A DNA stretch of 64,000 bases from Malacoraja senta (lineage: Eukaryota), in assembly GCA_038087875.1 (NCBI GenBank), contig CM075995.1, positions 10,046,001-10,110,000 of the forward strand, read 5' to 3'. The notes beneath the pieces are model-generated. The model was not told the DNA's origin and did not search any database. It saw nothing but the letters and a program-made list of their open reading frames with translations. This document shows, in pieces, positions 1,625-41,700 of the stretch. The stretch's first letter is position 1, and the number at the start of each line of letters is the position of its first letter. Position numbers and translations under genes: made by a program.

Positions 1625-2357
1625 AGGGGCTGTCCCACTGCGGTAACCTAATCTGCGAGTTTAGAATAGTTTGCCCTCGACTCAAACTCGCAGCATGGTC
1701 GACACGTGGTCCTAGGATGTCCTTTGAGGTCACTGGAACTCTCCTGCATGCTCGAAGGAAGTTCCCGCATACTTGCGGCCTCAGCTAGGTCGCAGAAAAC
1801 GTTTCAACATGTTGAAAATTTTTTCGCCAGTAAAAATTGGTCGGCATGGTTCATTTTAACTCATAGTGCAGTGGAGTGGGGTCGCTATTTAGTTACAGGC
1901 AGTCGAGGGCTGCCGTAGGCAATCTCCTTCGCTGACTGGGCATGTTTGGAGCTCATTGGAGCTTTCAGGACCAAGGAAAACCGACCGGTAGGTTAAATGC
2001 CCTCTAAACTTTATTAAACGTTGTCTGACTTCTTAAAAGTGTCTCCACTCCTTCTCCTCCCCTTCTCTCCCCTTCTCTCTCCTTCTCTCCCCCCCCCCCC
2101 CCCACCCCCACGCCTTCTAAAGGATTTACCGTACACTGTGCAGCCGTCTTTTACCTTCCTCTTCATCGCGGGTGTGAATTTCAGACAGTGCTCCCCCGCT
2201 TTCCCTGGCCCCCGCCTTTGCGATGTGTTTGTGTGTGTGCGGTCGGTCGCTGAAGGTCGATCCAGCTCGAGGTTTTCCAGGCGAGTACCCTCGAGCTTGA
2301 AGGTCGAAGACACTCTTCTGAACTCGCGGATTAGGTCGCCACAGTGGGACAGCCCCT
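1625..2357. mobile_element. Non-autonomous PIF/Harbinger-type element nested in Tc1
   Basis: ~37-bp TIRs AGGGGCTGTCCCACTG...; TTA TSD at 1622-1624 and 2358-2360; the Tc1 copy near 62270 shows the empty site with a single TTA. Confidence 0.88.
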
Positions 2358-2728
2358 TTACAGTTTGCCAAGAAGTACTTAAAAGAGCAACCACAGTTCT
2401 GGAAAAATGTTGTGTGGACAGATGAGACGAAGATTAACTTATATCACAGTGATGGCAAGAGCAAAGTATAGAGGAGAGAAGGAACTGCCCAAGATCATAG
2501 CATACCACCTCATCTGTGAAACACGGTTGTGGGGGTGTTATGACCTGGGCATGTATGGCTGCTGAAGGTACTGGCTCACTTATCTTCCTTGATGATACAA
2601 CTGCTGATGTTAGTAGCATAATGAATTCTGAAGTGTATAGACACATCCTATCTGCTCAAGTTCAAACAAATGACTCAAAACTCATTGGCCGGCAGCTCAT
2701 TCTACAGCAAGACAATGATCCCAAACAG

Positions 2729-35175: not shown

Positions 35176-35375
35176 NNNNNNNNNNNNNNNNNNNNNNNNN
35201 NNNNNNNNNNNNNNNNNNNNNNNNNNNNNNNNNNNNNNNNNNNNNNNNNNNNNNNNNNNNNNNNNNNNNNNNNNNNNNNNNNNNNNNNNNNNNNNNNNNN
35301 NNNNNNNNNNNNNNNNNNNNNNNNNNNNNNNNNNNNNNNNNNNNNNNNNNNNNNNNNNNNNNNNNNNNNNNNNNN
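35176..35375. other. Assembly gap (200 N)
   Basis: Run of exactly 200 N, adjacent to CA/C-rich low-complexity sequence. Confidence 0.99.
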
Positions 35376-38021: not shown

Positions 38022-38159
38022 CTGGGGCTCGGGAGAATCTGGTGAGGGAGGCGAGTCCTCTGCCCTGGCGGTGAGTGGCTCGCCCCTGCGGTCTTCGATG
38101 GCCTGTTTCATCACCTTCAGCTCGCTGGGGTGAGGAGTTGCTCGGCGCTGTAACCGGCC
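38022..38159 (-). CDS. SCRIB: Scribble exon 13 equivalent: GRLQRRATPHPSELKVMKQAIEDRRGEPLTARAEDSPPSPDSPEPQ
   Basis: 138 bp, gtgcag| and |gtcagc; LQRRATPHPSELKVMK conserved; donor position less certain. Confidence 0.88.
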
Positions 38160-39282
38160 CTGCACGAGGGACACAATGAACAATCGTCAGAGCCGACAGC
38201 CACACTGTTCCAAACATCTTGTGCCCATTCCCTCCACGGATCCTGCCTGGCCCACTGCCACCCTCCGGCACTCGTGTTGGCATTGCAGCTGTAGGTGCAG
38301 CGACCAGCTGCAGCTCCTAACTGACCACGTCAAGCAGCTAAATCCACAGCTGGCTGCACTCAGGATGGTGCGGGGGTGTGAGAGCGCCAGACATCAGAGT
38401 TACAGTGATGTGGTCACACCTAAGGTGCTGGCAGAGAGTAGATGGGAAACGGGAGTAGGCAGAGAGATGGAGACGCAAGGAACTGCAGGTGCCATTTTAT
38501 ACAACGTGCTGGACTAACTCAGCAGATCATCTCTGGACAACATGGATAGAGGACCAGATCAGAAACCTTCTTAGAGTGCAGGAATCCTCTGGGGCCATTT
38601 GCCTCAAAAACTGGCGCACCATTTTGGATACTATGAGGGGGATGAGGGGTCAGAGAGCAGCAGTCGCAGACAGGTGTGTGGCACAGTGCCTGTCTCTGAG
38701 GTAAAGTCAGGAAGAGCCATATTGAAAGGAGACTATTGCTTTTTGCTTTTGCTCTGATGTACAAATTCTTCCTCCATCTTGATAGTCACATAGCATGCCA
38801 CACGTCCATGTTGATCATGATGCACCATCTACACTAGTCCCACTGGCCGGTATTTGACCCATACCCCTCTAAACCTCTCCATTCATGTACCTGTCTGATG
38901 GCTTTTAACTGTTGTTGTTGTACCTGCCTCAACTACCGCCTCTGGCAGCTCGTTCCATATACAACCACCTGCAGTATGGAAATGTTGCCCTCAAGTTCCT
39001 GCTCAATCAGCTGGTTAACCCCAGCTGCTCACTAATGTTCCAAAATGGTTACACAGGGTTTTCCAAGCATTCCCAGTCCGGCCCAACTTATCCCAGCCCG
39101 TCTCATCCCAGCTCAGCTCATCCCAACCCCTCCTGGTGCAGAAGAGCCTATCCCAACTCACCCGGCCCATCTCACCCCAGCCCGGCCCAGTTCATCATGG
39201 CACGGCAGAGCCCATCCCAGCCCGGCCCACCCTAACCCATCTCATCCTGGCACAGCCCGGCCCGCCCTGCAGAGTGACTCAC

Positions 39283-39407
39283 GCGTCTCTCTGCCTCCTC
39301 CTCGATGTCCTCGCCGTCTCTGGGCTCCTCCTGGAACTGGATCACACTGACACGGTTCAGGTTGGGCTCAGGCCATGGCTCATCCACACTGTCCGTCAAT
39401 AGGTTCT
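39283..39407 (-). CDS. SCRIB: Scribble exon 12 equivalent: ENLLTDSVDEPWPEPNLNRVSVIQFQEEPRDGEDIEEEAERR
   Basis: 125 bp using the in-frame (proximal) ttgcag acceptor, |gtgagt donor; RVSVIQF motif conserved; acceptor is duplicated (see findings). Confidence 0.92.
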
Positions 39408-39474
39408 CTGCAATCAAATCCGGTCCGTCAATAGGTTCTCTGCAATCAGCACAGTCAGGTAGCACAGCACCTGT

Positions 39475-39557
39475 CACAGCCCAGGGACCACAGCCCAGGG
39501 ACCACAGCCCAGGGACCACAGCCCAGGGACCACAGCCCAGGGCTCACAGCCCAGGGC
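39475..39557. repeat. 14-bp tandem repeat (cacagcccagggac)
   Basis: Period 14; just upstream of the exon 12 acceptors. Confidence 0.9.
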
Positions 39558-40771
39558 CCAAAGCCGGCGGTTTTAAAGCTAATTAAGATGGATAAATCCC
39601 CAGGGCCTGACTAAGTACACCTTTGGACCTTGCGATAAAAGCTAGGTAGGAAATCGCAGAGGTTGTTGCAGATATATCTGCAGCATCGTTAGCCACAGCT
39701 GAAGTTTCGGAAGACTGGAGGGTGGCTGATGTTGTACCAGACCTTGTACTGTTGACAGGGTAGTAAGGACAAGCCAGGGACCAACAAGCCGGTGAGCCCC
39801 AGGGCAGCTTGGGAAAGGTGTTGGAGAGGATTCCCAAGGCCAAGATCGACCAGCATTTTGACTCATCAGGGTACTCAGCATGACTTTATACCTGGGAAAG
39901 AGAATCAGATTTAGCTCTTAGGGCTAAAGGAATCAAGGGATATGGGGGAAAGTAGGAACGGGGTACTGCCATGATCGTATTGAATGGTTCGATGGGCCGA
40001 ATGGCCTACTCCTGCACCTATTTTTCCATGTTTGTAAATCCTGTTTCACGAATCTGATTCAGCTTTCCAAAGAGCTCACGAAGAGGATTGAGGAGGGCAG
40101 CATAGTGGATGTTGTCTATAAACTTTAGAAAGGCCTTTGGCAAGGTCCGCTGGTCTGGAAGGTTAGATCACATGGGATCCAAGGTGAGCAAGTCAACAGG
40201 ATTCAAAATTGTCTCGCAGGAAATGGTCAATGGATAGTTGTGGGGGTTGGAAGCCCGTGAACAGTAGCCTTCCCCAGGGGTCGATGTTGGGTCCTCTGTT
40301 GTTGTTATTGACATTAAAGGTTTAGATGACACCGTAGTAACATTGTAAGTACATTTGCAGTTGACAACAAAATTAGTTGTGTAGTAAAAAGGAAGGAAGG
40401 ATATTAAAGCTTACAACAAGATCTAGACCTGTTGGGAAGGTGGGCCAAGGAATGGAACTCTGACAAATGTAAGGTGTTGCACTTTGGTATGTCAAACCAA
40501 GGCAGGACTTACACGGTAAATGGTAGAGGCCTTGAGAGTGTGTGGAACAGAGATCTGGGAGTACATAAAGTGGTGGGTCAGGTGAAGAAGGCATTTGGCA
40601 CGCTTGCCTTCATTGGGAAGGGTACAATGGTTCGGACATCCTGATACAGCTGTATACCACATGTGGAGAGACCACATTTGGAGTTGTGTGTGCAGCTATA
40701 GCAAGGATGTCATTAAATTCACCCAGATGAAGATTCACCTGCATGTTACCTGGGCTTGTGGGCTTGGGTTA

Positions 40772-41700
<929 letters not shown>

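What the first reader, a model, noticed from the sequence alone, without database searches (positions are those of the whole stretch)
39391..39448. Tandemly duplicated 3' splice site of exon 12 whose upstream copy gives an immediate stop (LRR/LAPSD-only Scribble or NMD switch)
Seen: a 26-bp block spanning the intron-exon junction (gtccgtcaataggttctctgcaatca) occurs twice, 32 bp apart (39391-39416 and 39423-39448). The upstream acceptor (exon start 39439) is the first one reached after the intronic ctgac branch-like motif. It reads G|AG AAC CTA TTG ACG GAC CGG ATT TGA = ENLLTDRI*. Only the second acceptor (39407) keeps the frame. Established: the first AG after the branch point is usually favoured, and LRR+LAPSD without PDZ is the architecture of the paralog LRRC1/Lano. 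Inference: this is a built-in switch between full-length Scribble and a PDZ-less or NMD product, or a loss-of-function allele.
Basis: partly seen in the sequence, partly recalled or inferred. Interest (0 to 1): 0.75.

Follow-up and report, generated by a model that had tools for sequence, protein, structure and literature searches.

The report
Doubled splice acceptor in skate scribble
This skate genome sequence carries a 26-base extra copy of the splice signal in front of one exon of the cell-polarity gene scribble; using the extra copy would cut the protein short, but it is most likely a recent copying accident that the gene tolerates (or an assembly error), and nothing shows that it works as a switch.

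Summary
The sequence observation holds. A 26-bp block across the scribble exon 12 acceptor is present twice, and the upstream copy (39439) reads ENLLTDRI-stop. A related species has one copy but keeps the 6-bp spacer, so the upstream copy is the likely insertion.

The switch reading is unsupported. The short product stops at residue 432, before LAPSDb, so it is not Lano/LRRC1-like; similar human truncations harm polarity.

Two things were missed. The inserted copy supplies a branch-point-like motif 21 nt before the original acceptor. It also puts a third AG (39470), best-scoring of the three in a crude model, in frame (+21 aa).

The draft is noisy: this gene has 3 single-base frameshifts and missing exons, and such near-tandem copies are locally common (8 in 596 kb). 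Neither own-species RNA nor read confirmation of the copy was obtained.

Odds: tolerated recent insertion 0.48, assembly error 0.27, damaging heterozygous allele 0.20, regulated switch 0.05. The scan noted the same kind of thing before in other genomes (ANK2, SMG1, NOTCH4).

The parts
40885..41051 (-). scribble exon 11 (end of the LRR region and LAPSDa); phase-1 donor at 40885
39475..39565 (.). 14-bp minisatellite, 6.5 copies, directly upstream of the third acceptor; about 70 bases shorter in relative B
   Evidence: table 8 (X2 record 9 jumps from 39491 to 39562)
39471..39473 (-). third candidate acceptor A0 (CAG, exon start 39470), 63 nt upstream of the original; in frame and open (+21 aa) only with the 26 extra bases (63 nt instead of 37)
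   Evidence: use not shown
39454..39458 (-). ancestral branch-like motif (A at 39455): 16 nt from the upstream copy's 3' end, 22 nt from the acceptor in the relative's layout
   Evidence: motif match only
39423..39448 (-). upstream (inserted) 26-nt copy with acceptor A1, exon start 39439; out of frame
39427..39431 (-). branch-like motif inside the inserted copy (A at 39428), 21 nt before the original acceptor, no AG in between
   Evidence: motif match only
39417..39422 (-). 6-nt spacer; ancestral intron sequence, differing from relative B at 2 of 6 letters
   Evidence: table 4; agrees with the read-through protein P0001
39414..39416 (-). TGA reached from A1, 131 nt before the end of exon 12
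39391..39416 (-). original 26-nt block with acceptor A2, exon start 39407
39283..39407 (-). exon 12 (125 nt; LAPSDa-LAPSDb spacer); skipping it shifts the frame
38022..38159 (-). exon 13, encoding the LAPSDb motif (from residue 469)
   Evidence: boundary from PMC6605793 section 12
35176..35375 (.). assembly gap (200 N) 4.0 kb from the duplication; the exon(s) for residues 513-668 are missing around it

Best explanation
A 26-base copy of the scribble exon 12 acceptor sits 6 bases upstream of the original, likely left by a recent DNA-repair or replication accident in this skate lineage, and the gene likely tolerates it because enough mRNA would still be spliced in frame while transcripts using the extra copy would be destroyed by nonsense-mediated decay. 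Shown: the copy; its absence in a relative that keeps the spacer; the stop reached from the upstream copy; two in-frame routes. Inferred steps: (1) the copy arose by templated insertion, since the shared 'tg' at its left edge and the altered spacer fit error-prone end joining; (2) the copied exon letters give the original acceptor a new branch-like motif at -21, almost the ancestral -22, while the old motif now lies only -16 from the extra copy; (3) a third AG at 39470 became in frame and may add 21 residues to the LAPSDa-LAPSDb spacer; (4) splicing to 39439 yields a stop 131 nt before the next junction, a decay target (50-55 nt rule, recalled). The result is splicing noise, not regulation.
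For: Relative B: one contig (depth 42.6) spans 39230-39491 with 26 letters left out and the spacer kept (tables 4 and 8). P0001, an intron read-through from another skate, shows the same single-copy layout. Branch-like motif distances: original acceptor 21, relative's layout 22, extra copy 16. 18 of 29 other scribble acceptors have such a motif at 18-44 nt, the window that a clinical predictor uses (PMC11918821, passage). Acceptors 20 nt or more apart are typically defined with separate branch points, and the upstream bias is reduced when both flanking introns are long (PMC9225289 section 9); here they are 1477 and 1123 nt. Each rescue feature has a chance rate near 0.15 (motif 0.15; open and in frame 0.43 x 1/3), so having both fits an allele that survived selection. 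In the human analogue USH2A c.3812-3_3837dup the upstream junction made up only 20 of 1113 reads (PMC11311777 section 14). Short local duplications and flank-templated inserts are known repair products (PMC2671141 and PMC5730883, passages). Decayed pairs, which are older and unlikely to be artefacts, also occur nearby: 21 of 29 pairs. C-terminal truncation of Scribble is embryonic lethal in mouse (as cited in PMC4919504, passage), so a fixed null is unlikely.
Against: My position-weight model (29 acceptors of this one gene, crude) scores the extra copy above the original, 4.6 vs 1.7; only 1 of 29 true acceptors scores lower than the original. Competing 3' sites generally favour the upstream one, even in the long-intron class. 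New AGs downstream of a branch point are often pathogenic. In USH2A the main outcome was exon skipping (678 of 1113 reads), which here would shift the frame. The third acceptor has no branch-like motif within 50 nt and a pyrimidine fraction of only 0.53. The distance from the LAPSDa to the LAPSDb motif is 54-57 residues in 55 of 67 proteins, so +21 would be unusual, although three Rotaria proteins have 76-77. The assembly has other errors in this gene. No RNA data test any step.
Confidence: 0.48

Rival explanations
1. Assembly or polishing error: the animal has one acceptor, and the 26-nt copy was written by the consensus or polishing step of a noisy draft.
For: The same gene carries 3 single-base frameshifts in PDZ-region exons just beyond the window (L002, about 2705, 2592 and 1648), where Leucoraja and Amblyraja proteins are intact. 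Exons for residues 1-92, 513-668 and 1573-1839 of P0022 are missing from 664 kb that holds 9 gaps. Exact pairs lie closer to gaps than random (median 8.0 vs 20.2 kb, P=0.022), and this one is 4.0 kb from a gap. 0 exact pairs were found in 20 scattered 10-kb pieces of the same scaffold (192,593 unmasked bases). Only one locus matched in the genome, so no second haplotype is held.
Against: The other errors are single-base, whereas this is a perfect 26-nt copy offset by 6 nt with an altered spacer. Decayed pairs are also near gaps (P=0.035), so the gap effect does not single out artefacts. Five contigs of a run of the same organism match intron 11 and exon 11 with 0 differences over 1,406 letters (that run may be the source sample). 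The exon 12 stretch has no small indels against relative B apart from this one.
Confidence: 0.27
2. Real but damaging allele: the extra AG captures splicing or silences the acceptor (exon 12 skipping), most mRNA from this allele is frameshifted, and the sequenced animal carries it on one chromosome only.
For: The extra AG lies 14 nt after the ancestral branch motif and 32 nt before the original acceptor, inside the high-risk zone of PMC9284458 (passages). It outscores the original. The USH2A duplication caused mis-splicing in most reads. Both upstream use and skipping break the frame.
Against: Two independent in-frame rescue features are present. With respect to the new motif at -21, the extra AG lies upstream of the original acceptor's AG-free zone (28 nt). 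A private damaging allele must also have been the haplotype chosen for the assembly.
Confidence: 0.2
3. Regulated switch: cells choose between full-length Scribble and a short PDZ-less protein or a decay target through the two acceptors.
For: Two competing acceptors with different frames exist in the sequence. PDZ-less LAP-unique regions can support polarity when they include LAPSDb (PMC6605793, passages).
Against: The short product lacks LAPSDb and resembles harmful human truncations. The copy is absent in relative B and in P0001. Such copies are a common mutation class locally, and about 60 per 200,000 acceptors would be expected at the pooled rate (200,000 is an assumed round number).
Confidence: 0.05

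Closest known systems
Duplications spanning an intron-exon boundary, e.g. human USH2A c.3812-3_3837dup (PMC11311777; passages and section 14 read)
   Same: A short duplication (29 nt there, 26 here) copies the acceptor and the first exon letters; use of the upstream copy gives an early stop.
   Different: USH2A is a strict tandem copy with 3 intron letters, and its skipped exon is in frame. Here 9 intron letters are copied, a 6-nt ancestral spacer separates the copies, skipping shifts the frame, and a third in-frame AG exists. USH2A has RNA data; this has none.
Short paired duplications ('doublets') and repair-mediated or templated insertions (Thomas et al. 2004, seen only as described in PMC2671141; PMC5730883, passages)
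   Same: A short, near-tandem exact copy with short shared letters at one edge and an altered junction; several of this kind lie in the surrounding DNA.
   Different: It happens to fall on a splice acceptor. The repair pathway (polymerase theta versus classical end joining) cannot be told from one event.
[quoted passage not shown]
   Same: A new AG downstream of the ancestral branch motif and upstream of the original acceptor.
   Different: The insertion also brings a new branch-like motif behind the new AG, which point variants do not.
LRRC1/Lano and PDZ-less LAP-unique-region constructs (PMC6605793; passages and section 12)
   Same: LRR region and LAPSDa present, no PDZ domain.
   Different: No LAPSDb. 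The predicted 432-residue product corresponds to the non-rescuing sLUR-420/469 mutants, not to Lano or sLUR-517.

Membership tests
Scribble orthologue | LRR region, LAPSD domains and PDZ domains, collinear with named Scribble proteins | tested here: met
   1261 of 1839 residues of Amblyraja P0022 map collinearly; the rest is missing from the draft
[quoted passage not shown] | Both copies contain the acceptor AG and the first exon letters | tested here: met
[quoted passage not shown] | Derived state: relatives carry one copy | tested here: met
   1 of 1 relative laid on DNA lacks 26 letters; P0001 agrees; polarity rests on parsimony, no outgroup intron seen
[quoted passage not shown] | Present in the animal's DNA, not only in the assembly | tested here: inconclusive
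   no listed piece of the three same-organism runs spans the site
LRRC1/Lano-type architecture | LRR region and LAPSDa present, no PDZ | tested here: met
   product ends at residue 432; LAPSDa ends near 420; first PDZ starts at 693
LRRC1/Lano-type architecture | LAPSDb present | tested here: not met
   motif begins at residue 469, in exon 13, after the stop; human boundary 469/470; the LRRC1-labelled P0096 has the motif (that model also carries PDZ hits, so its label is uncertain)
Regulated unproductive splicing (poison acceptor coupled to decay) | Alternative site gives a stop well upstream of a later junction | tested here: met
   stop 131 nt before the exon 12 donor, with many later exons
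Regulated unproductive splicing (poison acceptor coupled to decay) | Conserved across related species | tested here: not met
   absent in relative B and in the source of P0001; congeners not seen
Regulated unproductive splicing (poison acceptor coupled to decay) | Alternative junction seen in RNA and changing with tissue, stage or decay block | not testable with these tools
   needs RNA reads of this species
Polymerase-theta templated insertion | Insert copied from the immediate flank, with short shared letters at the junction | tested here: inconclusive
   the insert is copied from 6 nt away, with 2 shared letters at the left edge and an altered spacer; one event cannot separate pathways (PMC5730883)

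The most novel reading that the evidence does not exclude
A newborn three-way acceptor caught at birth. One 26-base insertion, fixed in this skate lineage, simultaneously created a poison acceptor, rebuilt a branch point for the original acceptor out of copied exon letters, and shifted a lineage-specific upstream AG into frame. This skate would then make a Scribble with a 21-residue longer LAPSDa-LAPSDb spacer beside the normal form, and would set its Scribble dose by the share lost to decay.
Probability: 0.1. Interest if true: 0.5.

Novelty: new member of a known kind. Interest (0 to 1): 0.2.

Why it matters
Most likely it matters little: it is one more short duplication on a splice acceptor, a known mutation class, in a draft with errors in the same gene. 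If real and fixed, it is a compact natural test of 3' splice-site choice. Two acceptors share identical -9 to +17 context and differ only in branch-point spacing, and a third competitor lies upstream, in an essential polarity gene. Planar-cell-polarity signalling is implicated in skate fin shape (PMC10115646, passages; scribble is not mentioned there), but a copy absent from other skates cannot explain a trait they share.

Tried and rejected
Sequencing runs: no RNA holder listed for the stretch (24 runs listed, none on record as RNA). Four of the 24 were laid. X1 (same organism, about 88 in 100 of the run read) has no piece over exon 12 or the original copy and no listed piece spanning the duplication. 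X23 and X24 (same organism) gave no informative cover there. These blanks say nothing either way. A second laying of reads (more relatives, a relative's RNA) was not obtained, so zygosity, presence in raw data, and the state in organisms C-G remain open.

Protein look-ups: no database protein reads through the doubled acceptor (exact look-up of P0018, 1 candidate, P0001 only). This is weak, because such fragments are rarely called.

LRRC1/Lano in this genome: not found with the exon 11 query (3 candidates scored); absence is not shown. The exon for residues 513-668 was not found genome-wide with a 69-residue query.

RNA folding: all three AGs are predicted mostly paired (0.03, 0.00, 0.10 unpaired), which does not discriminate.

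GAG acceptors 2 nt downstream of each CAG score below all 29 true acceptors and were rejected as main routes. A 32-nt tandem duplication was rejected as the simplest history because the relative keeps the spacer.

Literature: no paper held all of 'duplication, spanning, splice acceptor, intron-exon boundary, duplicated acceptor'. The 2 papers returned for skate plus planar cell polarity do not contain 'scribble'. The library lacks most subscription papers. No supplements were read.

Full report
Observation. The two 26-nt copies are exactly where stated. On the minus strand each has 9 intron letters ending in CAG and 17 exon letters. The window holds scribble exons from residue 149 to 846 on the minus strand. 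The best relative is Leucoraja erinacea P0002, so the organism is a skate. From the phase-1 donor at 40885, acceptor 39439 (A1) gives ENLLTDRI-stop, and 39407 (A2) gives the frame found in 20 of 20 chondrichthyan database proteins spanning the junction (these are annotated models).

History of the copy. P0001, a read-through of this intron from another skate, has two extra codons between the upstream intron and the acceptor block, which suggested that the 6-nt spacer is old. Laying contigs confirmed it: in organism B one contig spans 39230-39491 with 26 letters left out and the spacer kept, differing at 2 of 6 letters. The simplest history is insertion of a 26-nt copy 6 nt upstream of its source, in this lineage. 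Polarity rests on parsimony; only one relative's DNA was laid. Both copies share the letter at 39400/39432 where B differs. Perfect identity does not prove extreme youth: at about 3.5% divergence from B, a copy as old as the split would stay perfect about 4 times in 10 (my arithmetic). Flank-templated inserts and small duplications are known products of end joining (PMC5730883, passages), and short local 'doublets' are an abundant class (PMC2671141, passages citing Thomas et al. 2004).

Base rate. Around the gene, 29 near-tandem pairs were found outside tandem arrays in 596,267 unmasked bases, 8 with an exact run of 24 nt or more; in 20 scattered 10-kb pieces of the scaffold there were 2 pairs, none exact. 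At the pooled rate about 60 of 200,000 acceptors (assumed number) would be hit if such copies were neutral; the rate is uneven, so this figure is rough. Finding one in a genome scan is unsurprising, and the scan's notes hold three similar cases in other genomes (unchecked AI notes).

Which acceptor would be used. I scored acceptors with a matrix built from 29 other acceptors of this gene (crude, leave-one-out range 0.0-16.1): A1 4.6, A2 1.7, relative's layout 5.8. This favours A1, as do the first-AG rule and the high-risk zone for new AGs (PMC9284458 and PMC7317903, passages). Against it, the ancestral branch-like motif was 22 nt from the acceptor and is only 16 nt from A1, while the copied exon letters place a similar motif 21 nt before A2 with no AG between. 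18 of 29 true acceptors have such a motif at 18-44 nt. Acceptors 20 nt or more apart usually use separate branch points; the upstream one is still preferred overall, less so between long introns (PMC9225289 section 9), and both introns here exceed 1.1 kb. In the closest human case, USH2A c.3812-3_3837dup, the upstream junction made up 20 of 1113 reads and skipping 678 (PMC11311777 section 14; no decay block is mentioned in that section, and the authors note that the stop-carrying form may be under-counted). Skipping exon 12 here would shift the frame.

A third acceptor. It scores 9.3, second of 84 AGs between 39290 and 40880, and lies 63 nt before A2 in an open frame, adding 21 residues. Without the insertion it would be 37 nt away and out of frame. 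P0001's translation has leucine at that codon, so its source lacks this AG (inferred from protein); B's state is not listed. A0 has no branch-like motif within 50 nt and sits behind a 14-bp minisatellite that is about 70 bases shorter in B. The LAPSDa-to-LAPSDb distance is 54-57 residues in 55 of 67 proteins with both motifs; the rest are short models, intron read-throughs or rotifer-like proteins at 60-77. Each rescue feature has a chance rate near 0.15; both were noticed after the fact, so they raise the odds of a tolerated allele only modestly.

The short product is not Lano-like. It would end at residue 432. In human Scribble LAPSDa is 403-420 and LAPSDb follows 469; constructs ending at 420 or 469 lost basolateral restriction and worsened tight-junction defects (PMC6605793 section 12). 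The LAPSDb motif begins at 470 in human P0059 and at 469 in skate, in exon 13. The stop lies 131 nt before the next junction, so decay is expected (rule recalled). A useful PDZ-less isoform is therefore unlikely.

Is it real? The draft is noisy. Just beyond the window the same gene has three single-base frameshifts where Leucoraja and Amblyraja proteins are intact. Residues 1-92, 513-668 and 1573-1839 of P0022 have no exon in 664 kb with 9 gaps. Exact pairs lie nearer to gaps than random (P=0.022), but so do decayed pairs (P=0.035; post-hoc tests, and two of the decayed pairs are copies of one element). Five contigs of a same-organism run match the neighbouring intron and exon 11 without a difference over 1,406 letters (possibly the source sample). 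The copy itself was not confirmed in read data, and no RNA of this species was examined.

Verdict. Best reading: a real, recent, tolerated insertion that adds splicing noise (0.48). Rivals: assembly error (0.27), damaging heterozygous allele (0.20), regulated switch (0.05). These odds are my judgement. It is a new member of a known kind; interest 0.2. All ten papers were seen as search passages, three of them also as one full section each; no supplements were read.

Noticed in passing
L002, about 2705, 2592 and 1648 (G000:C19, 7.3-8.4 kb left of the window): Three single-base frameshifts in two scribble exons of the PDZ2-PDZ3 region; orthologues are intact. Probably consensus errors in GC-rich DNA.
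   Followed up: partly
window 35176-35375: 200-N gap beside a 2-kb CA-rich array; the exon(s) for residues 513-668 are missing from the assembly.
   Followed up: partly
L002, about 2160-2600 (minus strand): The exon after PDZ2 encodes a Gly/Thr/Ser/Ile-rich repeat, with different repeat content in this genome and in Leucoraja P0002; the Pristis protein P0003 gave no match over it.
   Followed up: no
window 39475-39565 and 41102-41558: Minisatellites sit directly upstream of the acceptors of exons 12 and 11 (14 bp x 6.5; 31 bp x 14.7); the first is about 70 bases shorter in relative B.
   Followed up: partly
G000:C19:9726001-10390000 versus 20 scattered 10-kb pieces: Short near-tandem duplications are much denser around scribble (29 in 596 kb) than elsewhere on the scaffold (2 in 193 kb).
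   Followed up: partly
window 39891: The best-scoring AG in intron 11 by my matrix (11.0), inside a repeat-derived stretch and out of frame; a decoy or cryptic acceptor.
   Followed up: no
window 39370-39372: This genome keeps proline here, as do Pristis, Narcine and Callorhinchus, whereas Leucoraja, Amblyraja, P0001 and relative B have alanine, hinting that it branches outside those skates.
   Followed up: no
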